Notes: generated by a model not told the origin, from the letters alone. DNA of 32,000 nucleotides from Nitrobacter hamburgensis X14 (GCF_000013885.1 NC_007964.1:866166-898165); one strand, 5' to 3'; positions 1 through 17,078 are shown, counted from the stretch's first letter. Numbers and translations: made by a program.

Positions 1-264
1 ATCGATCGTGCAGCCGGCCTTGCCGATCGCGCAACGTTGCATTTGGGGCCGGGAGCAGACAGTCCGGTCATGGAGAAATCTGGCGGTAAGCGGCCATTCT
101 CCAACCGACCTCATCAAAGACGTCAGAACGCCCGAAACTCGGGCGCCGAAGCGGACATCATAGGATCGAGCTTGTAGATCGTTGTGGTACCTTCCCCACT
201 GGGCCGTGCGGAAGATCGCCTCGTTTGTGAATCGAAGGAACGCGATATCAATCCATGGTGCTGA

Positions 265-2154
265 TTACCGCAAGTCATGCGGTGTTTTGCGCTTAGCCTG
301 AATCCTAGCCACCACGATATGGTACTCCACCTCGGATCCGGCCGGTACCTTTCGCTCCACACTGATCTGCTCGGAAAGGTGTGGTTGATGGCCACTTCGA
401 TCGGTGAGGTCGAGCACCAAGAGGAAACCAAAGCGCACGCCGGTCGTCAGGTAGCCCGTTGCCTGACCAGCATACCGCTTCGCCAGAGCGGCATTGTCGG
501 GCACGTTGTCGTCCTTCTTCACCTCGACGGTCGACTTTACGCCACGGTACTCGATTGCAATGTCAGCGCGGCCGCCACCGGAATCTCTGACTTCGGCTCG
601 GAACGATGGCGCGTCCGACGCCGTGAGGAACCTTAGAAAATCCAGTTGAAGGTCGTGCTCGACCGGCAGATCGGCGCCGCGTCGGAACACGTATTCGCTC
701 GACGGATCGGTGCTCTTGCCGATGTTGGCGCGAAAATCCAGAAACCGCAGGATGAGCGTGCACATGAGTTCTAGCAACGCTCGGGGGTGCTCTCGCTTGT
801 AGTCGGGACTGTCCGAGAGCTTCTCCATGACAGCGGTCCACAGGGCGGCCACCTGCTGATTGCGATCGATACCCACGTCGAGCTGCGCTGCTGTCATTGC
901 GGCAGTAGCTTCGTCGAGGCCGGCGTGTGTGAGGAAATCGACCAGCCGACCTCCGGTCGATTCGTCGAAAGGGCTGCGATGGAGGGCCCCGGCCAGTGAT
1001 TGCTGTACCGTATCGCGCAACTGTCCGACGTTTAGCGCCAGGTCGCTGTCAGCTTTCTCGGCGAGCCACTGATCCAAGGTCTGCAGGTAGTATCGCCGTT
1101 TCCGCAGCGAATGGACGAGTGCCTCCCGTCCAAGAATATCGGCGCCATTGCCATCGGATCGGGAGAACACCTTTTCGCTGGCGAAGAAGATCGAGAGCAG
1201 TTCGTCCTCGATCACGATGGCCGCTTGCAACCAGATGTCCTTCGTAAACGTGTGAGCGATCATGGCCAGTTTGGTGGCCATCGACAGCCAGTGGAAACGC
1301 TCGCGGGATGACGTCCCGAGCCATGATTCCGCAGAGTGACGATCCGTAGCATAGGCCGAGTACTCTATGGCGGCGCGCCGAAGTTTCGGCAAATCGAGTG
1401 AAAGTTCGGAATGCAGCCCCCTGGCCTGCACATCGATCAGGACCGACGTGCAGATCTCATAAAGCGCGGCATCCGAACGCTCTTCGCTCATGGCGAGCGA
1501 ACGGCGAAACCAATCCTGCGCGGCCGCCAACGCCGACGTTAGTGCATCGTAGGTTCTGGCCAGCAATCCTTCCTGTAGCCGATCGAGCCCCAGTTCGAGT
1601 GCGGCCTCGTCCGATGCCGCGTCGACTTCGACCAGCCGAGAGAGAAGGTCCCGGAAATCGTCGTCGGGGTATCGGCGCAGGATGGCGCCAGCAACCTTCG
1701 CGACGTGACGCAGATAGGCGCTGTCGTCGTCCGCCGTGACGTCCAGGAGGTACGACTGCAGGCGCCTTACCAAGCTGGGATCGCCCTGCGCCACGGCCAG
1801 TGCGCCACGTAACGCCTGCGATCGCATCCACCTATGCTCAGACCGGGACTCGAAACGGCTGCGGAAGATCTCCCACGCACCGCGGCCGAGAGCCTGCGGT
1901 ATCGCGGGCAGTTCGTCGAGGCAGTCGACCATTTCGGCAACGGAGGTGGCGTCGTTCTCTCGCTCGAGTATCCGCAGCAACGCGCGCTGAACGGCGGCCG
2001 CGGTCACCCAACCGGTCAGCCAGCAGAACGCGTCGGCGCGTGCGGTTTCGGAAGGCAGGGCCTCGATCGCGGCCAGCAGTTCCTTCTCTTGAGCCGTCCC
2101 CGGATCTGGGATGGGCGTGCCGTCCGTCGTCAGGAGCTCGAATCTGTCTTCCAT
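265..2154 (-). CDS. Large, mostly alpha-helical protein with a C-terminal PD-(D/E)xK (restriction-endonuclease-fold) nuclease-like module. Third gene of the ABC-ATPase operon.
   Basis: 629-aa ORF. The ATG at 2152-2154 lies 11 nt after the ATPase stop (2166) and is preceded by GGTGGGA. I recognise no motif in the N-terminal ~500 aa. The C-terminal ~110 aa shows an E...D...ExK pattern (VEHDLQLDF ... GGGRADIAIEY ... STVEVKKDD). Confidence 0.7.
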   Translation of the reverse strand: MEDRFELLTTDGTPIPDPGTAQEKELLAAIEALPSETARADAFCWLTGWVTAAAVQRALLRILERENDATSVAEMVDCLDELPAIPQALGRGAWEIFRSRFESRSEHRWMRSQALRGALAVAQGDPSLVRRLQSYLLDVTADDDSAYLRHVAKVAGAILRRYPDDDFRDLLSRLVEVDAASDEAALELGLDRLQEGLLARTYDALTSALAAAQDWFRRSLAMSEERSDAALYEICTSVLIDVQARGLHSELSLDLPKLRRAAIEYSAYATDRHSAESWLGTSSRERFHWLSMATKLAMIAHTFTKDIWLQAAIVIEDELLSIFFASEKVFSRSDGNGADILGREALVHSLRKRRYYLQTLDQWLAEKADSDLALNVGQLRDTVQQSLAGALHRSPFDESTGGRLVDFLTHAGLDEATAAMTAAQLDVGIDRNQQVAALWTAVMEKLSDSPDYKREHPRALLELMCTLILRFLDFRANIGKSTDPSSEYVFRRGADLPVEHDLQLDFLRFLTASDAPSFRAEVRDSGGGRADIAIEYRGVKSTVEVKKDDNVPDNAALAKRYAGQATGYLTTGVRFGFLLVLDLTDRSGHQPHLSEQISVERKVPAGSEVEYHIVVARIQAKRKTPHDLR

Positions 2155-2165
2155 CGTCCCACCGG

Positions 2166-4157
2166 TCAGAAAAGGTATTCATCCCCCTTGGCGTGCAGTC
2201 GATGATCGCTAGATACAACCGCCTCCACGGCCTTGCGAGCGATGGTGCCGATAATGACCTGAACGCCTCCGATGTCCTTTGCAGCAGATGAAACGCTATC
2301 GAGCATCTGCTCAAAGTCCTCGTTCACGACCTCTTCCGATGCCGGCGAGTCGATGATCAGCAAGCCAGGATGCCGGCCATGCCCGCGACGCTTGGCCACC
2401 TCCACCGCCGCCAACGAGATGGCGATCTTGATACGCAATTTCTCGCCCATCGTCAGGTTGCTGAAATAGATATCGGCGCCGCCTTGGTGGACCTTCAGCT
2501 TCCCGCCGCCGTCGAGGTGCATGCTGGTGACGTGGGATACACCGAACTTCTTGGCGAGAGACATCACTGAATCGGCGATCTCCGTCAGGACGTCCGACTG
2601 CATAGAGGTCATTAGCGTCTTACTGACTTCGGTAGCGGCGCGGAGGATCTTGAGTTCGCCCTGCGTCTCGGTTTCGTCGTTGGCAGGCGATTGCAGTGAA
2701 GCCACCAGTTCCCGAAGCTGCTGGGTCTGGGCCTCCAGCTGCACCACGACGAGTTCGGGATCCGTCGGCAACGTGGAGATGGCGTCCTGAAGGTTTCGTA
2801 CTCTGCTCATTCCGACGCGGAGCCGTTCGGTCGCGTCCCTTGCTGTCTTCTCGCTGGCTTTGAGCTTGGCCTTGGCGATCTGGAGCGAAGTGGCCAGTTC
2901 CTCCACCAAGGTCTGGGCGTCCTGGATGCGATCGCTGTCCAGATCCTCTTCGTGGACCGGGAGGTCGTTCTTGCACAAGGCGCAGGTATTGCCATCCGAG
3001 TGCTGAACCGCCGTCGCGGCCTTCTCGAACGCCGCCTCGCAGGCGGGGCAGCAAGTCGGGCTGAGCTGACGGAACGAGTATCCTGCCGACCGCTCGTCCT
3101 CAAGCTGCTTGAGCCTTCGACGCGCGTCGTCGTAGCTGGCTGTGACGGACGCGACGGTCGCCGTGTCCGCCTCGAAGGTGACCCGAGCGGTCTCGGCCGC
3201 CTTCCTATCGCTCGCGATCTCCTCGTCGAGCCGCGCCAGTTCTAGCCTTTTTGCGGCGCGGTCATCGGTGCCGCGAGCCTTCGTCGCCTCCGCGAGCTGG
3301 CCCTCAACCTCGATAAGCTTGGCATTGAGCACCGCGCTCACGCCGGACTGATCTGGCCGACCTGACAATCCCTGTTCGATTTGCTTCTGCGCGGTCAACG
3401 CAGCGCTATAAGTAGAGACCCACGGCAATCCGATGAACAGTTGGAGCAGGCGAAGCGGGAGCCCGTCGATGGGTAGGTCACCGAACAGTGCCTTCGGCTC
3501 GATGGAGCTCGACAGGAAGAATGTCGAAGCTATCAGGGGCCAGCCATGGGGATGACCGCCCGTATTCTTGTTGTGGGCGTAGATCACCGGGAAATCGAGC
3601 TCCTCCATCATCAGGTGCTCGGTCTGCGACTTCAGCCCGTCCCCAGCGTCGCCTTCGTAGAGCGTGATCCACTGACCGTCGCTATCGCTCCGGCTCAACG
3701 TGGCTCTGCCCTCCGCCGTCTTCTCCTCGCCGGCGGCCTTGCGCAATTCCAAGCGATGCAGGACGTTGTCGATGCGATACTGGATTTCGATGGCCTCCAG
3801 CCACTTCCAGACGTCGGGCTTCACCCGGCCGGGAAAGTCGCCGCGGATTGCGGCTTGGAGAAGGTTCAGGACGGACGACTTTCCTCGCAGATTGCGCTCA
3901 GACATCACGGCCCAGATGCCAGTTCCCAGGCCCGACCAAGATAGATCGAACAGTCCGTCGCGCTCGGACTCGGCACGAACACCCGTCAACTTGATGCTGT
4001 CGAAGCGAAGGCTCTTGGCACGCGGCGGCGTTGTCTGAGCGCGAATACCATACTTGAGCAGCACGCTTCGAACATTCGACTCTGGACTGGTGCTGTCCTC
4101 AGCGATGGCCTTGATCCAGCCGTACTCGGTTGGCTCGATGGTCCGTTCCTTGCTCAT
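2166..4157 (-). CDS. SMC/Rad50-like ABC ATPase with a long coiled-coil insert and a double-CxxC (zinc-hook-like) apex
   Basis: The ORF-track frame is 2166..4361. I place the start at ATG 4155-4157 (MSKERTIEP) because it overlaps the upstream stop as ATGA (4154-4157). Motifs: Walker-A-like NLRGKSSVLN, signature-like LTMGEKLRI, and Walker B/D-loop GLLIIDSPASEE. Between the head halves is a ~300-aa Ala/Glu/Arg/Leu/Gln-rich insert with CPAC...CALC at its centre. Confidence 0.75.
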   Translation of the reverse strand: MSKERTIEPTEYGWIKAIAEDSTSPESNVRSVLLKYGIRAQTTPPRAKSLRFDSIKLTGVRAESERDGLFDLSWSGLGTGIWAVMSERNLRGKSSVLNLLQAAIRGDFPGRVKPDVWKWLEAIEIQYRIDNVLHRLELRKAAGEEKTAEGRATLSRSDSDGQWITLYEGDAGDGLKSQTEHLMMEELDFPVIYAHNKNTGGHPHGWPLIASTFFLSSSIEPKALFGDLPIDGLPLRLLQLFIGLPWVSTYSAALTAQKQIEQGLSGRPDQSGVSAVLNAKLIEVEGQLAEATKARGTDDRAAKRLELARLDEEIASDRKAAETARVTFEADTATVASVTASYDDARRRLKQLEDERSAGYSFRQLSPTCCPACEAAFEKAATAVQHSDGNTCALCKNDLPVHEEDLDSDRIQDAQTLVEELATSLQIAKAKLKASEKTARDATERLRVGMSRVRNLQDAISTLPTDPELVVVQLEAQTQQLRELVASLQSPANDETETQGELKILRAATEVSKTLMTSMQSDVLTEIADSVMSLAKKFGVSHVTSMHLDGGGKLKVHQGGADIYFSNLTMGEKLRIKIAISLAAVEVAKRRGHGRHPGLLIIDSPASEEVVNEDFEQMLDSVSSAAKDIGGVQVIIGTIARKAVEAVVSSDHRLHAKGDEYLF

Positions 4158-4852
4158 GGTTCCAACCCGACGATCTTGGCTAGACGTTGTTCGACCTGCT
4201 CCCGGACGGTTGGTATCACGTCGCCAGGGATGGTGTTTCCATACTCGGGGTGCTCGTATTGCCATTCCTTCAGGGCAGAACCGCTCTTGCCGCTGGCGAC
4301 CCGCATGACCAACGCCAATCGGTCGCGATACCACGCCAACTCCGGGTGATCCTGAACGCACTTTTCGAGGAACGAGATCGCCTTTGGCGATATTAGATAT
4401 TCGTACCGACGAATCTTGCCGTCATCACCAGCGAGCTTCATGGGTCTGGCTAGGCCATAGTAGCTCAGCATGGCGAGCGCATCCTCGACATTCTGGTAGG
4501 CACCGTGTCGCCAGCGGACCATCCGCACCAGTCTGACGGAAGGCTCGTCATCGAGGAAGATGCGCTGAACCGCCTCCAGCAGCTCGGGATCGCCGGTCTC
4601 CTCATAGAGATCCAGCAGGGCGTCGCCCAAGTAGTCAGGATAACGGACGAGGAAGTCCATGGCCATCAAGCGCTTTTCGGCTCTGAAGACCTTCACGACG
4701 TCCTCGGTGGGCTTGTCGGCGTCTTCGCCACCCGCAACCAATATGAAGAGCAACCGAAGCGCGTCGCGGTGTCGAGAAGTCGGTTCGCGCGCTGCTAGAG
4801 AAGGCGGCGTGTGTTCGCCCTCTGCTCCCTCTCCTTCAACCAAAATATCCAT
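4154..4852 (-). CDS. Small acidic, winged-helix-like partner protein, first gene of the ABC-ATPase operon. The start is uncertain; the ORF-track maximum is 5056.
   Basis: The frame is 4154..5056. I prefer ATG 4850-4852 (MDILVEGEG), because 5055-5225 on the + strand holds a helicase remnant and the 4853-5056 extension is AT-rich and featureless. The stop overlaps the ATPase start. The segment RLMAMDFLVRYPDYL ... YGLARPMKL ... RRYEYLISPKAISFLE looks like a wHTH by eye (inference). Confidence 0.55.
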   Translation of the reverse strand: MDILVEGEGAEGEHTPPSLAAREPTSRHRDALRLLFILVAGGEDADKPTEDVVKVFRAEKRLMAMDFLVRYPDYLGDALLDLYEETGDPELLEAVQRIFLDDEPSVRLVRMVRWRHGAYQNVEDALAMLSYYGLARPMKLAGDDGKIRRYEYLISPKAISFLEKCVQDHPELAWYRDRLALVMRVASGKSGSALKEWQYEHPEYGNTIPGDVIPTVREQVEQRLAKIVGLEP

Positions 4853-5054
4853 ATCAGCAATTGCCCCAATAGCTGCCGGGCCGATGATATTCCAAATGTT
4901 CAGCTTTCGCCAATCTTGGCAGCCTCCACTCTCGATAGAGGAAAGCAGTTTTTTCCTGAGAATCCGGGACGATTTCTTCGGGCGAGCTCGATATAGTGCG
5001 GGCAGCAACTCGGTTAGATGCAATATTATCCACGCCGACCGCGAAGCACTGTGC

Positions 5055-5225
5055 ATGACGGACGAGATACCGCGTCACAACGCATCGGAGAGCGAGGTAC
5101 GCGAAACTCGCCGTCTGTTTTATGTTGGCTTCACCCGTGCACGGTACGAGATCCATCTTATGTTCGGGGAATTCAATCCGTCCCAGTTTGTAACCGAGAT
5201 CGAGGAGCGCCGGTCCGCCTCGTGA
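5055..5225 (+). pseudogene. C-terminal remnant of a UvrD/Rep-type (SF1) helicase
   Basis: The tail of ORF 4659..5225 reads ETRRLFYVGFTRARYEIHLMFGEFNPSQFVTEIEE. This matches helicase motif VI (RRLxYVxxTRA) plus the usual C-terminal tail. Nothing upstream in this frame looks helicase-like. Confidence 0.5.
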
Positions 5226-5477: not shown

Positions 5478-5766
5478 TCAGATTTCAGTTCGCTCGGCCA
5501 AGAGCAGCGCATCCTCGACGTCTACACCGAGGTAGCGCACGGTGTTCTCGATCTTGGTATGGCCGAGTAGGATCTGTACAGCGCGCAGATTGCCAGTCGC
5601 CTTGTAGATCATTGATGCTTTCGTTCGTCGCAGCGAGTGAGTGCCATACTCTGCTCGTCGCAGACCAATCGCAGTTACCCATTCATCGACAAGGCGGGCG
5701 TGTTGCCTCGTGCTCATGTGGTGCGCCTGGTTAATCCGGCTCGGGAATGCATGGTCGTCGACTGTA
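5478..5766 (-). pseudogene. Tyrosine recombinase/integrase, C-terminal half, separated from its N-terminal half by an IS21 insertion
   Basis: Contains HSLRRT (HxxR), LLGH and VRY catalytic-type motifs. It joins in frame to 8246..8581 once the IS and one copy of the 7-bp duplication are removed (checked codon by codon). Confidence 0.85.
5760..5766. repeat. IS21 target-site duplication, left copy (GACTGTA)
   Basis: An identical 7-mer lies directly outside both IS21 termini (5760-5766 and 8246-8252). Confidence 0.8.
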
Positions 5767-5768
5767 TG

Positions 5769-6632
5769 TCAATCGGCGCCGAAGTTTGACCCCGTATCGG
5801 CGTCCAAATTTGACCCCTTTGATCGACGGGGTTTAGCGGTAGCGCTCGGTCCGTCGGAGCTGGCCGGGATTGCGGAGACGGAGCGAGCGCGGGTTGTTTG
5901 ATCATCGTCGCGGCTTTTGAAGCGCCAGCTGTCGTTGCCGGTTTCGACGATGTCGCAGTGGTGGGTCAGACGATCGAGCAGCGCGGTGGTCATCTTGGCG
6001 TCGCCGAACACGCTGGGCCATTCGCCGAAGGCGAGATTGGTGGTGACGACGATGGAGGTGCGCTCGTAGAGCCGGCTGACGAGATGGAACAGAAGTTGTC
6101 CGCCGGATTGGGCAAATGGCAGGTAGCCGAGTTCGTCGAGGACGATGAAGTCCATTCGGGTCAGATGCTCGGCGATACGACCCTGGCGTCCGTTGCGGGT
6201 CTCGATCTCGAGACGATTGACGAGGTCGACGACGTTGTAGAAGCGCCCGCGGGCACCGGATCGAATGCAGCTTCGGGCGATGGCGATGGCCAGATGGGTC
6301 TTGCCGGTGCCGGTACCGCCGACCAGAACGGCATTGCGTTGCTGGGCGATGAAGCCACCGCCGGCGAGATCATTGACCAGCGTCTGGTTGATAGGGGTGC
6401 CCTCGAACTGGAAGCCATCGAGATCCTTGGCGAGCGGCAGCTTGGCGATAGTGAGCTGGTATTTGATCGAACGCGCCTGCTTCTCGTTGATCTCGGCATT
6501 GAGCAGGTCGCCGACAATGCGTTGCGGTTCGTGCTGGCGCTTGACGGCGGTCGCCATGATCTCGTCGAAGGCGGCCTTCATGGCATAGAGCTTGAGTTCG
6601 CTCATGAGGTCGAAGAGTTGAGTGCGTTCCAT
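5769..6632 (-). CDS. istB: IS21-family helper ATPase IstB
   Basis: Shows the P-loop [14 protein letters not shown], Walker [10 protein letters not shown], and the typical IstB N-terminus ([12 protein letters not shown]). The start overlaps the istA stop by 1 nt (TGATG, 6630-6634). The C-terminus runs into the terminal repeat. Confidence 0.9.
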
Positions 6633-8131
6633 CAGACCGGTCTCCTGAGGTTGTCGTAACGGGCACAGTCAGCGATCGGCGCATGGCGCAAGGTCAGCGC
6701 CGCCGGGGTGAGGATGTTGGCTGGTGGCGCCGGCTCACGCTGGCGGGCGAGGATGTTGAGAACGACATCGGCGGAATGGACACTGTGGGCGATCGCCTCG
6801 GCACAGGCGGCCTCGACTGCCGGCAGTCCGTCGGTCAGCACCGCGTTGAGGATGTCGACCATCTGCCGATTGCCATCGTCGGCACCGGCGAGCTTGCGCC
6901 GCACACGCTCGATCGCGGCCGGCAGCACCCAGTCCTTGAACGGGGCGCCGTTGCGCAACGCGCCGGGTTTGCGAGCCAGCACCGGCACATAATGCCAGGG
7001 ATCGTAGGTCGTCTCGCCGCGGCCGAATGAACGCGGATGCTCGGCGACGATGCGTCCGTCCTGGCGGATCACGATGCGGTCGGCATAAGCTTGCACTTCG
7101 ACGGGCCGCCCGACGGCGTTGGCCGTAACCGAGTATTTGTTGTTGTCGAAGCGCACCAGGCAGGTCTTCGAGACGGATGCCGGCACGGCATGGAATCCAT
7201 CGAACCGGCCGGCATAGGGAACGAGCTTCGGCCGCTCGGCTTCGAACACTTCCCAGACCGTCTGTTCGGTCAGTTCCGGATGACGGTGCGCCTTGGCGTA
7301 GGCGATGCACTTATCCAGCAGCCAGGCGTTCAACTCGTCGAGGGTTTTGAACCGCAGCCGCGGCGTGAAGAAGCGCTCCCGGACCAGCCCAACCTGGTTC
7401 TCAACCTGGCCCTTCTCCCAGCCTGAGGCCGGCGTGCAGGCGACCGGATCGACCAGGTAATGGCTGCACATCTGCATGAAGCGGCGATTGTAGAGACGCC
7501 CTTTGCCGACGAAGATCGTCTCCACCGCGGTCTTCATATTGTCGTAGATGCCGCGGCCGCAGGTGCCCTTGAACAGAGCGAAGGCCCGGTCGTGGGCGTC
7601 GAACACCATCTCCTGCGTCTCGCGTGGATAGGCGCGAGCGAACAGCATCCGGCTGTGACAGAGCCGGACATGAGCGACCTTCACGATCACCGTCACGCCA
7701 TGCAGCAGGACAACCTCATGGCTCCAGTCGAACTGGTAGGCTTCTCCCGGTGCAAAGCTCAGCGGGACATAGGCCGCCGCCGTCGATTGTCCGCGCTCCT
7801 GGCTCCACCGTCTGGCGTAACGTCGCACCGCATCGTAGCCGCCGTCATAGCCGCGCCCGCGAAGCTCTTCGAAGACCCGGATCAGCGTCAGCTGTTCGCG
7901 AGCGGACTTCGCCGCGTTCGACGCCAGCAATCCGTCGAGATCAGCGGCCCATCGCCCCAGCTTCGGCCGCGGCTGCACCGCACGTTCGTACTCGAATGAG
8001 GTCTCCCCAGACCGCAACACCTTGCGGACCGTGTTCCGCGACACCTTCAGGTCGCGGGCGATCTCCTTGATCGTCTTGCCCTTGATGAAGTGCTCGCGGC
8101 GTATCCGCGCAATCGTCTCCACGATCAGCAT
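6632..8131 (-). CDS. istA: IS21-family transposase IstA
   Basis: Has an N-terminal HTH ([21 protein letters not shown]) and a DDE-type core (YQFDWSH ... [10 protein letters not shown] ... EKGQVEN). I prefer the start at [11 protein letters not shown] (8131). The ORF-track maximum is 8155. Confidence 0.9.
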
Positions 8132-8245
8132 CCCCAACCACCTGCTTCGTTCCAAAGCAGGCAGCGCAACAGACCAACCTATCGGGGGTCAATTTTGGAC
8201 GCCGATCCCCCGGCTCAGGGGGGCAATATTGCAGGCCGAATAACA

Positions 8246-8252
8246 GACTGTA
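8246..8252. repeat. IS21 target-site duplication, right copy (GACTGTA)
   Basis: Identical to 5760-5766 and directly abuts the CA terminus at 8245. Confidence 0.8.
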
Positions 8253-8581
8253 CCGCCGCGCCTCTCGAGCCAGGCTAGGAGACTGGCCCGCACGTCGTTG
8301 GTCAGCTCGAACTGTACGGGGCGGCCCGTCTTCTGCTGGACGACAATCGCACGCATGTGTATTTCCGGCCCAGCGACCAGGTCGCCAATCTTGATTTTGA
8401 CCAAGTCACAGCCGCGTAGCTTGCTGTCGATTGCCAGATCGAAAAGAGCGCGGTCACGAACGCGCCCTTCATGATCGAGGAAGAAGCGAATCGCCCAGAT
8501 TTGTTTTTGTGTGAAAGGCCGCTTCGTGCCAACTGTCTTTACCGGCATTCCAAGCGGCTCGGCCCTGAGTGGCAGGATCAT
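8246..8581 (-). pseudogene. Tyrosine recombinase/integrase, N-terminal half, interrupted by IS21
   Basis: Reads MPVKTVGTKRPFTQKQIWAIRFFL ... DSKLRGCDLVKIKIGDL ... VVQQKTGRPVQFELT. The frame runs ...ERRGGTV up to the duplication (8246-8252) and then continues as DDHAFPSRINQAHHMSTRQ... at 5759 downward. The rejoined protein is about 194 aa if it starts at 8548. Confidence 0.85.
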
Positions 8582-8890: not shown

Positions 8891-10459
8891 TCAGTGCTTG
8901 CTGGCATAGCAAATCAAGTCGAGGAGCCGAAGAAGCGCTGGTCCCCTCGGGGAAAGACGATAGCGCAGCAGCTCGCCACGCTTCTCCAGCCTTGTCGCGA
9001 ATTCCGGCACGGACTTAAGCGCTCGATTGTTGTTGTACTTGCGTACCGCAAATCCCTGGTCCGCAGTCACGGCGGCGATCTCATCGCATGTCGCGGCACG
9101 GCCAATCTTTCGCAGGGCGCGCAGCGAACGATGCAATTCGGATAGGCTCTGGCGTCCATCCGGTAAAGTATCGATTGTGCTGACCAACTCGTCGATACGA
9201 CGGAAGTAGGAACGCACATCGGAGTCATTTCGGACAACGACATCAGCGATCTCATTCGCGACGCGCAGCGCTCCGAAACGCATCTGCTCCTCGTCGAGGC
9301 GGGCAAACTCCCCAAAAGTCCGGGCGTCGCCGGGGCGCGCCCGCTTGACGTGTCGCTCGAAACGGGTACGGGGATCGGCCTCGATCAATACCACCCGCGC
9401 CGCCGGCAGCATCGAACGCAACCGCATGACCTCTTCAACCGTTCGCATGCCAGTTACAATGTTGATGTCGGCGTTCTCCCGCGCGATATAGTCGGCGGCT
9501 CGCTTCGCCACGATGTCCCAACTCCGTTTTTCGAGGAAGGTCATCGCGTCAGCCGAGTTGCTGATTGTGATCCCTTCTTCTTCGGCTATTTGTCGCAGAA
9601 GGGTGCTACCCTCGAGCGCGAAAACTGCCGTGCGCTGCCCCATCAAAAAGTCGCCAAAAGTAGATTTGCCAGCGCATTTATGGCCGATCACGATAAGCAC
9701 GTCGCGCCGATTCAACGGAAGAAGCGAAAGCTGACTTCCAACCTCCCCCTCCGCGTCCGCTGCTTGGCGTACCACATGGTTCCATCGTCCAAGGTTGATA
9801 ATGGCGTTCAGCTCCTCCAGCCGCTCGATTAGCAGTGTAAGAGACTTTACGCGGAAGTCGTATGGGAGCGACTCTTCGAACTCCATTTCACCTAGTCGCC
9901 GGTTAGTCCCCTCGGGGACGAACCATCCATTGAACGTATCTGGCGTGAGCCAAGGATATTGCGGCGAGGTAGTGAATGCCGGTGGGGCCTCTGCAACACA
10001 TCCCGACGTTTCGCCGTGGAAGAAAACCGGCCGCGACAGAGTCGGCAGCCGAAGCGCAATATCGGACTTCACCGTACAACGTCGGTCGCCTCCGCGCAGC
10101 GCGATTTGGCGATCAAGTTCCACAAAACTCGTTTCCGAGAACCACTCCTTAACGCGCGTTCCGGGATAGTCTGTCGCGCCGCTCAGCGCCTCGATTCGCA
10201 GTGACGTATCCTCGACGAACAAGACCGAGCGGCGTTCAAACTCCTGGCTGACCTGCTTCAGTGCCTGGGTGAGTAGCCCCTGTGTGTCGAGGGAATAGTC
10301 TTCGCCATAGGGTTCGTGCTGACTGCGATAATGGGTGAGCTGATACCCACTACGCATGAAGATTAGCCTAGCCTGGATCAGCTTGTCTGCGTTCGAGGTG
10401 TAGAAAAAGATTCTGAGAAGCCGTTGAAACCGGAAGACGTCGCCATATCGAAACCTCAT
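8891..10459 (-). CDS. Three-domain fusion: Ham1/ITPase-like domain, P-loop nucleotide kinase (UPF0200/dNMP-kinase-like) and a C-terminal winged helix
   Basis: The ORF-track frame is 8891..10540. ATG 10457-10459 (MRFRYGD) overlaps the upstream stop as ATGA (10456-10459). N-terminal domain: FFYTSNADKL (TxNxxK), VEDTSLRIEALSGATDYPG (compare DDSGL..aL.G.PG), GETSGCV, and a GEMEFEE...DFR tail. Middle domain: Walker A IGHKCAGKST, then TGMRTVEEV ... VVLIEADPRTRFERHVKRARPGD..TFGEF..LDEEQ..FG ... ADVVVRND. C-terminus: a wHTH-like GRAATCDEIAAVT ... LRYRLSPRG. Confidence 0.75.
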   Translation of the reverse strand: MRFRYGDVFRFQRLLRIFFYTSNADKLIQARLIFMRSGYQLTHYRSQHEPYGEDYSLDTQGLLTQALKQVSQEFERRSVLFVEDTSLRIEALSGATDYPGTRVKEWFSETSFVELDRQIALRGGDRRCTVKSDIALRLPTLSRPVFFHGETSGCVAEAPPAFTTSPQYPWLTPDTFNGWFVPEGTNRRLGEMEFEESLPYDFRVKSLTLLIERLEELNAIINLGRWNHVVRQAADAEGEVGSQLSLLPLNRRDVLIVIGHKCAGKSTFGDFLMGQRTAVFALEGSTLLRQIAEEEGITISNSADAMTFLEKRSWDIVAKRAADYIARENADINIVTGMRTVEEVMRLRSMLPAARVVLIEADPRTRFERHVKRARPGDARTFGEFARLDEEQMRFGALRVANEIADVVVRNDSDVRSYFRRIDELVSTIDTLPDGRQSLSELHRSLRALRKIGRAATCDEIAAVTADQGFAVRKYNNNRALKSVPEFATRLEKRGELLRYRLSPRGPALLRLLDLICYASKH

Positions 10460-11439
10460 GCGGATTCGTCCCGCGAAGCTCTCGCGCCGTGATTCAGACC
10501 GCCATGACATCCTAGCCAACGTGCATTGTGTGCGGCACAAACCGCCCGTAACTCGGCGACAGCACGCGTATCACTGGCTGCGAAGATTACATATACGATT
10601 GGACCCATGCTGCTCATGCCCGCAGCATAGCCCTTTGTGCGAAAGTCCTCCAATAGCTCGATGACATTCTCGCCGCACCGTTCGATCTCAAGATGCTTGA
10701 AGCCCTTGTAGGAAATCGAAGCAAGCGAGGACGCAAGCAGTTTCAAATCCTCAAGACGAAATGCAGGCAGGATCCCGTGATACAGCGACGCCATTGTTTC
10801 AAGCGCATCGTCGGGCGCGATGGGCGCATTCTCTTCAAAGAAGCGCTGCTCTTCCGAGCCGTGCGATAATTCGCCCTTGGGTAGGCACAAGCCGACTCGC
10901 CATGAAGCTGGAAAAGGCAGCCGAAGCATCAGAACGGGTGCTGAGGTGGCCGCTCTCGCACCAGAGGGAAGCAGATGATCGATCTCCTCGGCGGGTCTAC
11001 CCGCGTCCCACAATACGCCGCCCTCAAAGAAACCGTGAATGCCGATGCCCGACGCCCCGCCACGTCCGCTCAGACTTTGCTGCTCAGCCCGATTGCCTGG
11101 AAGCTCAACTAGGTGGTGATATGCTAAGATGACCGCGAGCTTAAGGGCAGTCTTTGTGCCGAGACCAATATGCTGAATCGCGTGACTATGGATGATAGCC
11201 TGAACCCGTCTTTTGCCCGCTTCGGCCAGCGTCTCGAGGAGAGCCGTCAACTCAGACTGGCATGACCTGTCCAAGTCGCTCGCCCCCTCTAACGACATTA
11301 CGGGCGCACACCTTAGTTCAACGTCGGCGGCAATCTTGTCGAGCATGAAGCCGACACCGCCGAATGCGCGGGGCGATGCAAAACCCATATCAGCTAGGGC
11401 AATATGAATGCGCGACCCCGCGCTCACTCGGACAGCCAA
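10456..11439 (-). CDS. GHMP-kinase-superfamily enzyme resembling beta-ribofuranosylaminobenzene 5'-phosphate (beta-RFAP) synthase
   Basis: The ORF-track frame is 10456..11487. I prefer TTG 11437-11439, which has AGGAG 7 nt upstream and lies 4 nt after the upstream stop (11444-11446). Motifs: RIHIALADMGFASPRAFGGVGFML, HIGLGTKTALKLAV and SGRGGASGIGIHGFFEGGVLWDAG. From memory these match the three signature blocks of beta-RFAP synthases. Confidence 0.7.
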   Translation of the reverse strand: MAVRVSAGSRIHIALADMGFASPRAFGGVGFMLDKIAADVELRCAPVMSLEGASDLDRSCQSELTALLETLAEAGKRRVQAIIHSHAIQHIGLGTKTALKLAVILAYHHLVELPGNRAEQQSLSGRGGASGIGIHGFFEGGVLWDAGRPAEEIDHLLPSGARAATSAPVLMLRLPFPASWRVGLCLPKGELSHGSEEQRFFEENAPIAPDDALETMASLYHGILPAFRLEDLKLLASSLASISYKGFKHLEIERCGENVIELLEDFRTKGYAAGMSSMGPIVYVIFAASDTRAVAELRAVCAAHNARWLGCHGGLNHGARASRDESA

Positions 11440-11443
11440 CTGT

Positions 11444-12196
11444 TCACTCCTGCGCTGCCGGCGCGGCAGCTTGCCATGTCGCCTCAAAATGGCTGTCCAA
11501 ATGGTCGAACATGAAACCGCCTCGATGCACGAGGATGGTAGGCGAGTTGCGGCTTCGCTCCGTCATCAAATACGGACCCCAGAAGATCTCGTCATCAATC
11601 CGCAATAGGTTGATCGCAGGAATGGAGCGCATACGGCGCACCTGGAACTTGACGCGATCTATATCTTCATCGGTATCGACGGCTGCTTGGAATGCTTCGA
11701 TGTCGGCGCGAATTTCCCCCCTTGCGCCGCCTTCCTCAAGGTCGCGGTAATCAGCGAGGCTCTGTGCTTTCGTCGGGAAATCTGGATCCAGCATAAGAAC
11801 TCGCACATTGGCCCTACGTGACCACTCTGCGAACTCGCGGGCGTAGTCCTCACGGAAGGACGACAAGCCTAGACCGATCAGGTCGATCCGCTTCGCCGAC
11901 CTGAGACGACGGTCGTATTGTTCCTTGATCCGCACCGAACGATGCGGGAAAACGCTTGAGATGCCGGCACTCGCTATCACCTCAAGCCTGTTCTGCGTCC
12001 GCTCGGTTAAGCGGATGTAGAGGTATAGCGCCATCCCGGCGATACCCGTCGCAAGCAGACCGCCACCCACGCTTTGTGCAAGTGTTGCACCGAACACTCT
12101 TTCACCCTCGGTTGTCATGCAGAGCATGCCCCCGAATACTAGGACCAAATGAACGCCAAGCCACATCAGGCTCGTCGGCGACCACCAAGACCGCAT
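11444..12196 (-). CDS. Two-transmembrane-helix protein with a ~170-aa cytoplasmic domain of unknown function. First gene of the operon and candidate effector.
   Basis: The ORF-track frame is 11444..12238. I prefer ATG 12194-12196 (MRSWW), preceded by GGAAGGGGAGAAA. Hydrophobic segments are LMWLGVHLVLVFGGMLCM and VGGGLLATGIAGMALYLYI. The soluble part (RIDLIGLGLSSF ... VRVLMLDPDFP ... INLLRIDDEIFWGPY) matches no family I can name with confidence. Confidence 0.7.
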   Translation of the reverse strand: MRSWWSPTSLMWLGVHLVLVFGGMLCMTTEGERVFGATLAQSVGGGLLATGIAGMALYLYIRLTERTQNRLEVIASAGISSVFPHRSVRIKEQYDRRLRSAKRIDLIGLGLSSFREDYAREFAEWSRRANVRVLMLDPDFPTKAQSLADYRDLEEGGARGEIRADIEAFQAAVDTDEDIDRVKFQVRRMRSIPAINLLRIDDEIFWGPYLMTERSRNSPTILVHRGGFMFDHLDSHFEATWQAAAPAAQE

Positions 12197-12307
12197 TTTC
12201 TCCCCTTCCACGAGCCCAACAAGGCGAACTGCACACACGTAACGAGCCTGTATCCGCGCTGCGAATCATCGCTAGCTTAAACGGAGTATTTATAGGCGTT
12301 AAACGCT

Positions 12308-12322: not shown

Positions 12323-12632
12323 TCCGACATTCTTTCATAGTAGGCACGTGAGAAACTCAGCTATCAGCCAGAAATAAGCGCGAATGATAGTCTCCCGCCT
12401 TGCTGAATTTTCGGAGCCGTTAGCGGAACGTGGCTTCGTTGCGAAAATGCAGCATAGCTGCCGTTATCGTGGCAATATCGCCGATCAAGCTTCCACGGTC
12501 ATAGGGTCTTGCAAGTCAGCAACGATGCAAGTCGTTCGTGGTTTCGAATTTCACCGCTTCCGACGATCCTTGTGGATGTGTCGTCACAATCCATTGCTGC
12601 AAAAGGCGGTACCCGCCAATCTGGCAGTGGAT

Positions 12633-13496
12633 ATGGCGACTCACCTCATCAAATCTTTGACTGTCGGTTTTCTACGGCGCTGGAAAGCCGGATTAACGCG
12701 GGCCTTTGGTGTGGCCGGAGCGATCTGGCTGGTCACTGAAATAGTGACTCGTGTCTCCAGCTCGGCGAACGATTGGCTGACCGCCAACGGAGACGTTTAC
12801 TTGGGCGGCGTCCTGCTCGCAGGGGCTATGTGGTTTGTCGCCTACTCCTACGAGCAGCGAAAGGTGAAATTTCGAGTTCCGACCACAAACAGCTACATCA
12901 CAATCAAGTTCGGTAACCTATTCGAAGAAAGGTCAGACTGGCTAATTGGCGTTAACGAGTTCTTCGACGGCCGTCTTGGACAAGTGATCGCAAAGACCTC
13001 CGTCCACGGGCAGTTCATCACTAACGTATTCCACGGCGACGAGACGCGATTTCGAGAAGCAGTGACGGCAGCTCTGGCTGGCGTGCCTTGCACATCCACT
13101 GCCAGGATGAACTTGCCAGCGGATTCCTACGAGATTGGCACCACGGCCGTCGTTGCTAACGGGTCACAGAAGGCGTTCCTCGTGGCTATGTCCCGAACCG
13201 ACCTTGTGACGCATAAGGCTGGATCAACGGTGCCCATGCTTTTCGAAGCGATGAAGGGCGCGCTCGAATCAGTAAAGAACTATGGCAACGGCGAACCGCT
13301 GGCGTTGCCGCTAATCGGCAACGGCCTTTCCAGCGTCAACTTAGAGCCGCAACACCTGCTCAGGCTCATCACGCTGGCTTTGGTGGACTTTGGGCGAAAA
13401 GTCAGCTTGCCCAAGCAAGTGACCATCGTGGCACCCGAGGGATGCTTTGAACAGCTCGATATCCGTGAAATCAAGCGAGATTGGATGAAGCGCTAG
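12633..13496 (+). CDS. thsA: ThsA-like protein of type II Thoeris architecture: two TM helices plus a Macro-like domain
   Basis: The ORF-track frame is 12384..13496. I prefer ATG 12633 (MATHLIKS), because the upstream 83 codons are Cys/Arg/His-rich and not protein-like. TM segments are AFGVAGAIWLVTEIV and VYLGGVLLAGAMWFVAY. Macro-like blocks are ITIKFGNLFEERSDWLIGVNEFFD and LALPLIGNGLSSVNLEPQHLL. Confidence 0.6.
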   Translation: MATHLIKSLTVGFLRRWKAGLTRAFGVAGAIWLVTEIVTRVSSSANDWLTANGDVYLGGVLLAGAMWFVAYSYEQRKVKFRVPTTNSYITIKFGNLFEERSDWLIGVNEFFDGRLGQVIAKTSVHGQFITNVFHGDETRFREAVTAALAGVPCTSTARMNLPADSYEIGTTAVVANGSQKAFLVAMSRTDLVTHKAGSTVPMLFEAMKGALESVKNYGNGEPLALPLIGNGLSSVNLEPQHLLRLITLALVDFGRKVSLPKQVTIVAPEGCFEQLDIREIKRDWMKR

Positions 13497-14047
13497 TGGC
13501 TTATCGAAACGGCACCTATATTGCGTTCCACGCAGAGGGTAACTCTGACCCTACCGCGTCAGACATTAGATACTACCGCACGCTGAAGATGTGGCACACC
13601 AACGATAATATCGAATTCAAGTTCGTGAACAGCCACGAGAAGGTCGCCGCCGTGCGGGACACAAGTCAGGCAGCGACTATCAAGCGGAGCCTGAGGGCGA
13701 GACTCGATAATTCAAAAAACATGGTCCTCATCATCGGTCAGCGGACTAGGTTCGATATGGACTTCGTGCCTTATGAGATCGCCTACGCGGTGGACACTTG
13801 TCGCATCCCCATTATCGCTACATATCCGGGGCAATCTGTGATCCGTGTCTCCAACGCGCTGAGGCCGCTGTGGCCCGAGGCGCTGCGGGAGAGGATAGAC
13901 AACGGCGCGGCTAGCGTCATCCATATCCCGTTCAACCAGAAGGCGATTGACGACGCCATCGGCCAGTTCAGTCACAACAAACTCCCGTTCGGCGGAGGGA
14001 TCGGTATCTACAGCGATGACGCCTATAGGTCGTTTGGGCTGCTCTAA
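13481..14047 (+). CDS. thsB: ThsB-like TIR-like domain protein (DUF1863 / MTH538-type TIR)
   Basis: Reads YIAFHAEGNSDP..DIRYY ... NMVLIIGQRTRFDMDFVPYEIAYAVDTCRIPIIATY, which fits the TIR-like pattern with a conserved Glu in (W/F)VxxEI. The track start is TTG 13481. An in-frame GTG at 13496 overlaps the thsA-like TAG (TAGTG) and is an equally good start. Confidence 0.6.
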   Translation: MDEALVAYRNGTYIAFHAEGNSDPTASDIRYYRTLKMWHTNDNIEFKFVNSHEKVAAVRDTSQAATIKRSLRARLDNSKNMVLIIGQRTRFDMDFVPYEIAYAVDTCRIPIIATYPGQSVIRVSNALRPLWPEALRERIDNGAASVIHIPFNQKAIDDAIGQFSHNKLPFGGGIGIYSDDAYRSFGLL

Positions 14048-15858: not shown

Positions 15859-16345
15859 TTGACGAGTTCCCCGAACCCGAGGGGGCCGTCGATGATCGCA
15901 ACCCAAAGAAGCGCGGCCCATTCCATCTGGTGCCGGTGATTTTGCAGGCGATCTCGGACAGGCTCGCGTAGGTCTCGCCCTCGAATGCGAATCCCTCCAC
16001 GGTGACCTTCACCCGATAGGTTGCGCCGCGCCAGGTTCGTACCAGCTCCGAGCCGGCCTTGATCCTGCGCGGCAGCTCCAATTTCCCGTTCGGTTTGCTC
16101 CGGGCTGCCTTGACCAGTTGTCTCAATAACCGGCTGCTCTCCTTGGAGAGACCGCCATAGGTGCGCTCCTGAATCCGCTGGGCGATGCTGCGGCGGAGCA
16201 GGTCCGGGCCAAAGGCTTTTGGCGGTTCAGCCCGGAACAGCTCGCGATACCGTATTCTGAGGTTCGCGATCGGCATCGTCGGGAGTTTGGCCAGCTCGGC
16301 TTCGACAACCCTATCGCTGCCGACGAGGCGTGCCGGCCGGATCAT
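15848..16345 (-). CDS. DUF2924-family protein (usual partner of large serine recombinases)
   Basis: Reads LRIRYRELF ... [16 protein letters not shown] ... [12 protein letters not shown] ... [25 protein letters not shown]. Its end overlaps the recombinase start. Confidence 0.8.
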
Positions 16346-16695
16346 GACGACGCGCGACCCTTGATGCGATAGGTCCGGTCACTGCCGTCCTTGCTCGACT
16401 CGACCTTGAGTTTGAGCTTCTTTTTGACGACGCCGGACAGAAAGCCGCGCACGGAATGCGGCTGCCAGCCAGTGGCTTCGGTGATCTCCGGGATCGTGAC
16501 GCCCTTCGGACGCTGGAGCAGGGCAAGTACCGAATCTTGCTTCGAGGGACTGGAGCGGTCCTTCACTCGGAGTGCGGCAACGACGGCCTTGGCCGGCTTG
16601 GTCGCCAATCCCGCTTTGGATTTTGTTTTATAGGTACGGCGTGAACGCGTTTTGGCGGCCTTTGCCGGTTTCGGTTTACGTTTGCTGGCAGACAT
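16342..16695 (-). CDS. DUF3489-family protein
   Basis: Has a Lys-rich N-terminus, then [44 protein letters not shown] ... RTYRI. The start ATG at 16693-16695 is preceded by GAGGAG. Its stop overlaps the DUF2924 start as ATGA (16342-16345). Confidence 0.8.
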
Positions 16696-16791
16696 TTTGA
16701 TCTCCTCTGTCATCGGCACCATCAGGCGGTGCCACTGACACGACCTCGCCGACCCGGGCGAGGGTGGAGAAGTCCGTAAGGTGGCTCGCGG

Positions 16792-17013
16792 CTAGTCCGT
16801 CGCGAGCCGGTTCAGGAGAGAAGCCGCATCATGCAAGCGCCCTGCTTCATAAATGAGCTGCTCAATATCCATGGAGACCTCGAGACCCTCAGTGATACTG
16901 CCTGCGACCGCGCAAGCCTCCGCGGCCTTGGCAATTCGTGCCGCTTCGCTCAGTTTGTTATGGACCTCGGCAATGATGAGTTTGATCGCTGGTTCAATGC
17001 TGGCGCGCTCCAT
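16792..17013 (-). CDS. Small hypothetical protein (73 aa)
   Basis: ATG 17011-17013 is preceded by a strong AAGGAGG. The product is helical and Ala/Glu-rich. No family recognised. Confidence 0.5.
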   Translation of the reverse strand: MERASIEPAIKLIIAEVHNKLSEAARIAKAAEACAVAGSITEGLEVSMDIEQLIYEAGRLHDAASLLNRLATD

Positions 17014-17078
17014 CGGGCCCTCCTTAAAAGTTGGACCCACTACCGCTCTGACGTCGCGCGAAGTCGAGCGGAAACTTG

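What the first reader, a model, noticed from the sequence alone, without database searches (positions are those of the whole stretch)
265..5056. Second candidate defence operon: wHTH-like protein, SMC/Rad50-like ABC ATPase and a helical protein with a C-terminal PD-(D/E)xK nuclease module
Seen in sequence:
- The three minus-strand genes are coupled by an ATGA overlap (4154-4157) and an 11-nt gap with an RBS (2155-2165).
- The middle protein has a split ABC head (NLRGKS; LTMGE; LLIIDSP) around a long coiled coil.
- The last protein ends in an E...D...ExK nuclease-like core.

Established knowledge: SMC-like ATPases paired with nucleases and small adaptor proteins form Lamassu, ABC-three-component (ABC-3C), Wadjet and similar DNA-sensing immune systems.

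Inference: this is a member or variant of that class. The ATPase-in-the-middle gene order and the C-terminal placement of the nuclease do not match what I remember for canonical Lamassu (LmuA-C-B) or ABC-3C. I therefore do not assign a name.
Basis: partly seen in the sequence, partly recalled or inferred. Interest (0 to 1): 0.7.

Follow-up and report, generated by a model that had tools for sequence, protein, structure and literature searches.

The report
Lamassu defence operon, nuclease (REase/PDDEXK) subtype
The three genes are an intact copy of Lamassu, a known bacterial anti-phage system, in a nuclease subtype whose Bacillus relatives have already been shown to protect against phages, so the finding is real but ordinary.

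Summary
Three co-directional minus-strand genes are joined by an ATGA overlap and an 11-nt gap. One correction: the first gene starts at 4852 (232 aa), not 5056.

All three proteins match PADLOC Lamassu models nearly end to end:
- LmuC, PDLC03872, 2e-78
- LmuB, PDLC03864, 5e-185
- LmuA, PDLC03853, 3e-156

The same three models are hit by the Bacillus cereus FSL K6-0040 "REase" Lamassu. Millman et al. 2022 verified that system experimentally, and its gene order is also LmuC-LmuB-LmuA.

The same order and LmuA architecture recur in all 46 related genome loci, from alphaproteobacteria to Streptomyces. LmuA relatives form 751 clusters at 50% identity.

The LmuA C-terminal domain keeps an invariant E, GRxD, ExK, QxxxY signature of PD-(D/E)xK nucleases. 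Fold evidence for that domain is only sub-threshold.

Verdict: a known system in a prophage-associated defence island of Nitrobacter hamburgensis X14. Low interest.

The parts
251..4916 (-). Extent of the transferable three-gene Lamassu cassette
   Evidence: blastn to Aquabacter cavernae (L007) and Mesorhizobium (L009, L015) is about 88% identical over window 251/262 to 4867/4916 and stops there.
4884..4913 (-). Promoter-like site (TTGGCG, 18 nt, TATCAT) about 30 nt upstream of the lmuC start
   Evidence: Consensus scan. The number of sites in the region is at chance level, so only the position is suggestive. It lies inside the conserved cassette.
4154..4852 (-). lmuC, small accessory protein, 232 aa (the longest ORF, reaching 5056, is an over-extension)
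   Evidence: PADLOC LmuC PDLC03872, 2.1e-78. Nearly all full-length homologues are about 230 aa (mostly 231-232). 29% identity, E 1e-28, to LmuC of the verified B. cereus FSL K6-0040 system.
2166..4157 (-). lmuB, SMC/Rad50-like ABC ATPase, 663 aa, 'short' Lamassu type
   Evidence: PADLOC LmuB PDLC03864, 5.2e-185 over profile 3-657/657, plus seven weaker LmuB models. Start overlaps the lmuC stop in ATGA.
3876..3902 (-). LmuB Walker A (SERNLRGKS)
   Evidence: S86, N89, G92, K93 and S94 are invariant in A3.
2973..3053 (-). LmuB double CxxC (CCPAC, 18 residues, CALC) at the apex of the coiled coil; putative zinc hook
   Evidence: C369, C370, C373, C392 and C395 are invariant across sequences 34-59% identical. 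Short LmuB proteins with zero, one or two CxxC copies are described in PMC12663957.
2442..2456 (-). LmuB ABC signature motif (LTMGE)
   Evidence: L568, G571 and E572 are invariant.
2346..2363 (-). LmuB Walker B (LLIIDS; Ser in place of the catalytic Glu)
   Evidence: Fits the hhhhD[Q/S/T/E] consensus reported for short Lamassu.
2155..2165 (-). 11-nt intergenic gap with a GGTGGGA ribosome-binding-like stretch before lmuA
670..2154 (-). lmuA N-terminal all-helical region (residues 1-495; the first ~250 are a well-predicted alpha-solenoid); presumed docking and regulatory part
   Evidence: AF2 block-mean pLDDT is 81-97 for residues 11-240 and much lower beyond. Foldseek returns TPR/HEAT-like repeat proteins. 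Profile match to the Bacillus LmuA N-terminal part, hhalign E 1.3e-4, includes the shared E-x-R-x-D-A motif.
265..669 (-). lmuA C-terminal PD-(D/E)xK nuclease domain (residues 496-629, plus stop codon)
   Evidence: E499, D505, G528-R529-x-D531, E544-x-K546 and Q564-xxx-Y568 are invariant in 16 sequences that are 28-76% identical to the window's. Predicted alpha-beta-beta-beta-alpha-beta topology. Sub-threshold Pfam hits to PDDEXK_9, DpnII-MboI, HSDR_N_2, AlwI and Mrr_cat. Sub-threshold Foldseek hits include OkrAI, BamHI, MspJI, XisH and Kpn2I. Whole LmuA matches PADLOC PDLC03853 at 2.9e-156.

Best explanation
This is an intact Lamassu anti-phage/anti-plasmid system of the short-LmuB type. Its LmuA effector carries a PD-(D/E)xK (REase/PDDEXK) nuclease. 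The cassette is lmuC-lmuB-lmuA, carried in a prophage-associated defence island of Nitrobacter hamburgensis X14.

The mechanism below is inferred from work on other Lamassu systems, not shown here:
1. LmuB dimerises through its coiled coil, probably at the double CxxC site.
2. Together with LmuC, it holds LmuA in an inactive state through LmuA's large N-terminal helical region.
3. The LmuB-LmuC heads sense DNA ends or replication intermediates of an invader.
4. LmuA is then released or oligomerised, and its C-terminal nuclease cuts DNA. This kills or arrests the infected cell (abortive infection).

Ser in place of the Walker B catalytic Glu suggests LmuB works as an ATP-binding switch with slow hydrolysis.
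For: Shown here:
- Full-length PADLOC matches to LmuC, LmuB and LmuA, with nothing in Pfam or NCBIfam above threshold.
- The experimentally verified B. cereus FSL K6-0040 REase Lamassu hits the same three models: LmuC 6e-69; LmuB, first 399 aa, 1e-89; and LmuA of a 99%-identical protein, 3e-69 over profile 89-652/655. An Mrr-type Lamassu hits different models.
- Millman Table S7 lists the two Bacillus REase systems as 'Verified', with gene numbers that give the order C-B-A. Table S2 marks both as defending.
- Millman Table S25 shows LmuA_effector_PDDEXK, LmuB_SMC_PDDEXK and LmuC_acc_PDDEXK as consecutive genes with LmuB in the middle.
- C-B-A order and the helical-plus-nuclease LmuA recur in 46 of 46 genome loci, at LmuB identities of 24-91%.
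- Catalytic residues are invariant.
- The cassette travels as a unit: 88% DNA identity across genera with unrelated flanks. It is present on 34 plasmids.
- Neighbours are Thoeris, a serine recombinase, an IS21 and prophage genes.

From the literature:
- The ATPase site, the effector domain and lmuC were all needed for defence in the tested Lamassu systems, and the phenotype was abortive infection.
- The Vibrio Cap4 Lamassu forms an A1B2C1 complex, senses DNA ends and activates LmuA by tetramerisation.
- Short LmuB proteins have Walker B hhhhD[Q/S/T/E] and zero to two CxxC copies.
Against: - No experiment exists on this locus.
- LmuB and LmuC have no sequence-level match to any solved structure, so the mechanism is carried over from distant subtypes.
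- In those subtypes the effector sits at the N-terminus of LmuA and a small C-terminal helical bundle docks it. Here the polarity is reversed and the helical part is about 490 aa, so sequestration and activation may differ.
- Nuclease fold support is sub-threshold. The domain-only AF2 model has pLDDT 53, its best Foldseek E-value is 0.019, and the best Pfam E-value is 0.003.
- The C-terminal domains of the window's family and of the verified Bacillus family align only weakly to each other (hhalign E 0.066). The Bacillus one lacks the ExK lysine.
Confidence: 0.9

Rival explanations
1. It is a Lamassu system, but it clears invader DNA directly rather than by abortive infection. The RecB/Cas4-like nuclease (QxxxY motif) would be recruited to the DNA ends that LmuB senses, and the cell would survive.
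For: The invariant QxxxY motif after ExK is typical of end-processing RecB-family nucleases (established knowledge). Lamassu senses DNA ends. DdmABC also eliminates plasmids.
Against: All Lamassu systems tested so far behave as abortive infection. Nothing in the sequence indicates self/non-self discrimination.
Confidence: 0.15
2. It is a housekeeping SMC-like DNA repair module (SbcCD, Rad50-Mre11, RecN or RecF-like), not an immune system.
For: Weak NCBIfam similarities to Rad50, SbcC, SMC and an archaeal SMC-related protein. Lamassu is proposed to descend from SbcCD.
Against: Those hits score 12-22 bits against cut-offs of 300-1087, and cover only the coiled coil. There is no Mre11/SbcD phosphoesterase partner. 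Distribution is patchy and the cassette moves horizontally, including on plasmids. It sits in a defence island. PADLOC LmuA/B/C matches are full length.
Confidence: 0.02
3. It is a decayed, non-functional copy.
For: The surroundings are heavily rearranged: an IS21 inside an integrase, a UvrD_C remnant abutting the cassette, and further IS elements. Some relatives are frameshifted (L003, L051).
Against: All three window ORFs are full length relative to homologues. Every invariant motif is intact. The translational coupling signals are preserved.
Confidence: 0.05
4. It is another SMC-type defence system, such as Wadjet.
Against: Only Lamassu models appear among the PADLOC hits for the three proteins at E up to 0.01; there are no JetA, JetB, JetC or JetD hits. 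LmuB is 663 aa with a short coiled coil and CxxC motifs rather than a hinge.
Confidence: 0.01

Closest known systems
Lamassu 'REase' systems of Bacillus cereus FSL K6-0040 (SG123) and Bacillus sp. UNCCL81 (SG124), Millman et al. 2022
   Same: Same gene order, LmuC-LmuB-LmuA. Same three PADLOC families (PDLC03872, PDLC03864, PDLC03853). Same LmuA layout, with a long helical N-terminal part and a C-terminal restriction-endonuclease-like domain. LmuB has a CxxC motif. Both were experimentally shown to defend.
   Different: Distant in sequence: LmuC is 29% identical, and LmuB aligns by BLASTP only around the Walker A region. Bacillus LmuA is shorter (563 against 629 aa). Its nuclease core reads G-E-x-D ... 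E-A-L ... K-xxx-Y instead of G-R-x-D ... E-x-K ... Q-xxx-Y.
DefenseFinder Lamassu-Fam, PDDEXK profiles (LmuA_effector_PDDEXK, LmuB_SMC_PDDEXK, LmuC_acc_PDDEXK), for example in Cellulomonas flavigena DSM 20109
   Same: Three consecutive genes with LmuB in the middle and a PD-(D/E)xK effector. Actinobacterial relatives of the window's system (Streptomyces, Embleya) have the same layout and hit the same PADLOC LmuA model at 4e-165.
   Different: The DefenseFinder profiles themselves could not be run here. Their equivalence with PADLOC PDLC03853, 03864 and 03872 is inferred.
Vibrio cholerae DdmABC (type II Lamassu with a Cap4 nuclease), solved by cryo-EM
   Same: Same three roles: effector, small accessory protein and a short SMC-like LmuB with a non-canonical Walker B. 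The presumed logic is the same: sequestered effector, DNA-end sensing, nuclease activation, abortive infection.
   Different: Gene order is A-C-B. The effector (Cap4) is at the N-terminus of LmuA, with a small 5-6-helix C-terminal docking bundle. That LmuB has no CxxC. There is no detectable sequence similarity to the window's proteins in the PDB searches.
SbcCD / Rad50-Mre11
   Same: ABC ATPase with a split head, an antiparallel coiled coil and a CxxC zinc hook, paired with a nuclease. It is the proposed ancestor of Lamassu.
   Different: The coiled coil is much shorter, there is no Mre11/SbcD phosphoesterase, it moves as a defence-island cassette, and scores are far below the family cut-offs.

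Membership tests
Lamassu (Lamassu-Fam / ABC-3C) | LmuB: SMC/Rad50-like ABC ATPase with a split head and a coiled coil | tested here: met
   PADLOC LmuB PDLC03864, 5.2e-185, full length, plus seven other LmuB models. Walker A, signature and Walker B are conserved.
Lamassu (Lamassu-Fam / ABC-3C) | LmuC: small accessory protein encoded next to LmuB | tested here: met
   PADLOC LmuC PDLC03872, 2.1e-78. 29% identity to the LmuC of a verified system. ATGA coupling to lmuB.
Lamassu (Lamassu-Fam / ABC-3C) | LmuA: effector protein combining an enzymatic domain with a non-catalytic domain | tested here: met
   PADLOC LmuA PDLC03853, 2.9e-156, profile 5-653/655. Helical N-terminal part and a C-terminal domain with invariant nuclease residues.
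Lamassu (Lamassu-Fam / ABC-3C) | The three genes are co-conserved as one operon | tested here: met
   46 of 46 loci found through LmuB carry LmuA, and those not cut short by a contig end also carry LmuC, always in the order C-B-A.
Lamassu (Lamassu-Fam / ABC-3C) | [quoted passage not shown] | tested here: not met
   The order is C-B-A and the nuclease is C-terminal. This is not a defining feature: the verified Bacillus REase Lamassu systems and the DefenseFinder PDDEXK example have LmuB in the middle.
Short Lamassu (Haudiquet et al. 2025) | LmuB about 600 aa, Walker B hhhhD[Q/S/T/E], zero to two CxxC copies | tested here: met
   663 aa, LLIIDS, two invariant CxxC motifs, against the criteria. 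No phylogeny was made.
Lamassu REase/PDDEXK subtype | LmuA effector domain has a PD-(D/E)xK (restriction endonuclease-like) fold | tested here: inconclusive
   For: the invariant E, GRxD, ExK, QxxxY signature and the predicted alpha-beta-beta-beta-alpha-beta topology. However, all Pfam and Foldseek hits to REase families are sub-threshold (best E 0.003 and 0.019), and the domain-only model has pLDDT 53.
Lamassu (Lamassu-Fam / ABC-3C) | Protects against phage or plasmids; needs the ATPase site, the effector site and LmuC; abortive infection | not testable with these tools
   Shown for Bacillus and E. coli members only.
Wadjet | JetA (kleisin), JetB (KITE), JetC (hinge SMC) and JetD (Toprim nuclease) | tested here: not met
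   No Jet models among the PADLOC hits at E up to 0.01. CxxC instead of a hinge.
SbcCD / Rad50-Mre11, RecN, RecF | Match to the family model above its cut-off, and an Mre11/SbcD partner for SbcC/Rad50 | tested here: not met
   Rad50 19.4 bits (cut-off 1087), SbcC 16.1 (920), SMC 12.4 (567). No RecN or RecF hit. The neighbouring genes are LmuC and LmuA.

The most novel reading that the evidence does not exclude
In this subtype the polarity of LmuA is reversed. A helical region of about 490 aa comes first and the nuclease last, whereas in the solved Cap4 systems the effector comes first and a small docking bundle last. No structure exists for any member. The large N-terminal alpha-solenoid could therefore be more than a docking handle, for example a second sensor or an autoinhibitory cage. 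The effector might then be activated by a route other than the tetramerisation seen for Cap4-type LmuA.
Probability: 0.2. Interest if true: 0.45.

Novelty: already known. Interest (0 to 1): 0.15.

Why it matters
It adds one more annotated defence system to a Nitrobacter hamburgensis island. All three genes are still labelled 'hypothetical protein' in public records.

It also documents that the REase/PDDEXK Lamassu subtype consistently uses the order LmuC-LmuB-LmuA with a C-terminal nuclease. Review texts generalise Lamassu as having an N-terminal effector and LmuC as the 'middle component', and this subtype departs from that. No structure of this subtype has been solved, so it would be a reasonable target for anyone comparing how different Lamassu effectors are restrained and released. 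Beyond that the finding is routine.

Tried and rejected
- Pfam and NCBIfam on the three proteins gave nothing above threshold.
- Sequence and profile searches of LmuB, LmuC and the nuclease domain against the PDB gave no meaningful hit, so the solved Lamassu structures could not be used as templates.
- Foldseek with the full-length LmuA model returned only generic TPR/HEAT-like repeat proteins, because the helical part dominates.
- The domain-only model of the nuclease came out worse (pLDDT 53) than the same region in the full-length model (block means mostly 72-88 from residue 531). Its Foldseek hits are therefore only suggestive.
- The wHTH claim for LmuC: hhalign against the E. coli SE15 LmuC, which Millman et al. 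label wHTH, found nothing, and Pfam found nothing.
- Nitrobacter was not found in Millman Table S7, but the stored file is truncated, so it is unknown whether this exact locus is listed. The Nitrobacter entries that were found belong to Shango and the ubiquitin-like (ISG15-like, Bil) system.
- The ABC-3C paper (Krishnan et al. 2020) is not held.
- The phrase 'Lamassu-PDDEXK' occurs in no held paper.
- tblastn of the Bacillus LmuA against plasmids gave no hit.
- At first the P. aeruginosa homologue looked like an effector-less LmuA. It is a frameshift, and the nuclease domain follows in another frame.

Full report
**Source and anatomy.** The window comes from the Nitrobacter hamburgensis X14 chromosome; the last gene is Nham_0784, a 100% match. 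Three minus-strand ORFs occupy 265-5056.

- ATGA is shared by the first stop and the second start, at 4154-4157.
- The second gene stops at 2166-2168.
- An 11-nt spacer, CCGGTGGGACG, precedes the third ATG at 2154.

The first gene is over-extended in the longest-ORF reading. Nearly all full-length homologues are about 230 aa (mostly 231-232), and the closest cover the 232-aa form that starts at 4852. The PADLOC profile starts aligning at residue 90 of the long ORF. DNA similarity to the closest relatives ends at 4867-4916. A promoter-like site sits at 4884-4913 (the count of such sites is at chance level, so only its position is suggestive). The cassette is therefore:
- lmuC, 4154-4852
- lmuB, 2166-4157
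- lmuA, 265-2154

**Identification.** PADLOC-DB gives one clear answer:
- Protein 1 = LmuC (PDLC03872, 2.1e-78)
- Protein 2 = LmuB (PDLC03864, 5.2e-185, profile 3-657 of 657, plus seven weaker LmuB models)
- Protein 3 = LmuA (PDLC03853, 2.9e-156, profile 5-653 of 655)

Pfam has nothing above threshold. NCBIfam gives only coiled-coil-level similarity to Rad50, SbcC and SMC, at 12-22 bits against cut-offs of 300-1087. That disposes of the housekeeping RecN/RecF/SbcC alternative.

**Link to experimentally verified systems.** Millman et al. 2022 expanded Lamassu into a family whose LmuA carries different effectors, including PDDEXK and Mrr nucleases. They showed that the ATPase site, the effector domain and lmuC are all required, with an abortive-infection phenotype.

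Their Table S7 lists two 'REase' Lamassu systems as 'Verified': Bacillus cereus FSL K6-0040 and Bacillus sp. UNCCL81. The gene numbers and strands give the transcription order LmuC-LmuB-LmuA. Table S2 marks both constructs, SG123 and SG124, as defending.

The B. cereus proteins were scanned against PADLOC and hit the same three models as the window's proteins:
- LmuC: 6.1e-69
- LmuB, first 399 aa: 1.1e-89
- LmuA, taken from a 99%-identical full-length protein: 3e-69 over profile 89-652 of 655, which includes the C-terminal domain

The E. coli SE15 Mrr-type Lamassu hits different models, PDLC03852 and PDLC03871. The models therefore distinguish subtypes. The window's LmuC is 29% identical (E 1e-28) to the B. 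cereus LmuC. The LmuA N-terminal regions match profile-to-profile (hhalign E 1.3e-4) and share an E-x-R-x-D-A motif. Millman's Table S25 also shows the DefenseFinder labels LmuA_effector_PDDEXK, LmuB_SMC_PDDEXK and LmuC_acc_PDDEXK on three consecutive genes, with LmuB in the middle.

They do depart from how reviews generalise Lamassu: order A-C-B, LmuC as 'middle component', effector at the N-terminus of LmuA.

**Co-conservation.** A scan of one genome per species with an LmuB profile returned 46 loci. They include Rhizobiales, Rhodobacterales, Sphingomonas, Pseudomonas syringae, a Neisseriaceae MAG, Acidocella, Streptomyces and Embleya. LmuB identity ranges from 24% to 91%.

HMMs were built from the window's families and run on all ORFs of these loci. 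Every locus has the order C-B-A. LmuA carries both the helical part and the nuclease part wherever the contig allows. Exceptions are minor:
- a 1.1-kb insertion between lmuB and lmuA in L040
- a split lmuB in L051
- a frameshift between the two LmuA parts in a P. aeruginosa locus

An exhaustive profile search finds LmuA relatives in 751 clusters at 50% identity (521 at E up to 1e-10). Among the best 150 listed, most are 600-700 aa and match across both the helical and the nuclease part. Thirty-four plasmids carry a relative, wherever annotated as 'hypothetical protein'.

The cassette moves as a unit. It is about 88% identical in DNA to cassettes in Aquabacter and Mesorhizobium over 251-4916 only, with unrelated flanks.

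**The parts.**

- *LmuB (663 aa).* It has an N-terminal head with Walker A SERNLRGKS. The coiled-coil arms are each of the order of 100-130 residues and flank an invariant CCPxC...CxLC pair. The C-terminal head carries LTMGE and LLIIDS. The length, the Ser after the Walker B Asp and the two CxxC copies fit the 'short Lamassu' description of Haudiquet et al. 2025. No phylogeny was made.
- *LmuA (629 aa).* AF2 gives a confident alpha-solenoid for roughly the first 250 residues and further helices to about 490. An alpha-beta-beta-beta-alpha-beta module follows. Across 16 C-terminal domains that are 28-76% identical to the window's, the invariant residues are E499, D505, G528-R529-x-D531, E544-x-K546 and Q564-xxx-Y568. 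This is the PD-(D/E)xK signature with the QxxxY motif typical of RecB/Cas4-like nucleases (established knowledge).
- *Independent fold evidence for the nuclease is weak but points one way.* Sub-threshold Pfam hits are PDDEXK_9 (4 of 16 members, best E 0.003), DpnII-MboI, HSDR_N_2, AlwI and Mrr_cat. Sub-threshold Foldseek hits of a low-confidence domain model (pLDDT 53) include OkrAI, BamHI, MspJI, XisH and Kpn2I among the top six. The fold is rated likely, not demonstrated.

**Mechanism (inferred).** This follows the Vibrio Cap4 Lamassu, which forms an A1B2C1 complex, holds LmuA as a sequestered monomer, senses DNA ends and phage replication origins, and releases LmuA to oligomerise. It also follows the genetic requirements.
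1. The LmuB dimer, with LmuC, probably restrains LmuA through its N-terminal helical region.
2. The complex detects invader DNA ends or replication intermediates.
3. It then frees the C-terminal nuclease to cut DNA, most likely at the cost of the cell.

The reversed polarity and the much larger non-catalytic part of LmuA mean the details may differ. That is the only part with some residual novelty.

**Context.** The cassette lies in a rearranged mobile region:
- a UvrD_C remnant abuts it (5058-5225, plus strand)
- an IS21 (5769-8155) splits a tyrosine integrase
- an uncharacterised Ham1/AAA_33/GHMP-like operon follows
- then come a Thoeris ThsA/ThsB pair (12384-14047), a serine recombinase, terminase-like genes, a ParB-methyltransferase and more IS elements

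In Brucella intermedia the same cassette follows a Gabija-like pair. This is typical defence-island company.

**Verdict.** It is already covered by PADLOC and DefenseFinder models and has experimentally verified Bacillus homologues. Interest is low.

Noticed in passing
window 5058-5225 (+): A 55-aa remnant of the C-terminal end of a UvrD-like helicase (Pfam UvrD_C 3e-5, just below the curated cut-off). It lies about 140 nt beyond the end of the conserved Lamassu cassette and is read divergently from it. It looks like a recombination scar.
   Followed up: partly
window 5478-8581 (-): An IS21 element (IstA 6632-8155, IstB 5769-6632) is inserted into a tyrosine integrase gene. The N-terminal part of the integrase (8189-8581) and its C-terminal part (5478-5717) flank the IS.
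   Followed up: partly
window 8891-12238 (-): A three-gene operon: a Ham1-like NTP pyrophosphatase fused to an AAA_33 kinase-like domain (549 aa), a protein with a weak GHMP-kinase C-terminal match (343 aa), and a 264-aa ORF with no family. None has a PADLOC hit. It lies between Lamassu and Thoeris, so it may be an undescribed nucleotide-related defence candidate.
   Followed up: no
window 12384-14047 (+): A Thoeris system: ThsA with a Macro domain (PADLOC 1.6e-93) and a TIR-domain ThsB (2.7e-65).
   Followed up: partly
window 14338-30618: Mobile-element and prophage content: a large serine recombinase with DUF2924, two terminase-large-subunit-like genes (17845-19245 and 29212-30618), a ParB-N6/N4 methyltransferase (19723-21087), a catalase (21777-23276), an IS110 transposase (25076-26104) and a DDE_3 transposase (26371-27483).
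   Followed up: partly
L003 8661-10585 (P. aeruginosa GCA_021598765.1): lmuA is frameshifted exactly between the helical part (508-aa ORF) and the nuclease part (a 113-aa ORF in another frame). In gene calls it therefore looks like an 'effector-less' LmuA. It could be a sequencing error or a real pseudogene.
   Followed up: partly
L040 7959-9068 and L051 5968-7913: An Algihabitans MAG has about 1.1 kb inserted between lmuB and lmuA. In Aliiruegeria haliotis, lmuB is split into two ORFs.
   Followed up: no
L005 1-8662 (Brucella intermedia): The same Lamassu cassette lies directly downstream of an OLD-TOPRIM ATPase and a UvrD helicase (Gabija-like). It is followed by a 216-aa protein that hits the PADLOC candidate family PDC-S31.
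   Followed up: no
P0306 and P0313 (Bacillus LmuA), residues about 440-490: The experimentally verified Bacillus LmuA proteins have G-E-x-D ... E-A-L ... K-xxx-Y where the window's family has G-R-x-D ... E-x-K ... Q-xxx-Y. The catalytic lysine may have moved to the following helix.
   Followed up: partly
window 3977-4157 (LmuB residues 1-60): LmuB has an extension of about 60 residues before the ABC head. It is conserved across the family (W14, I18, A19, L33, P45 and R46 are invariant) and has no assigned function.
   Followed up: no
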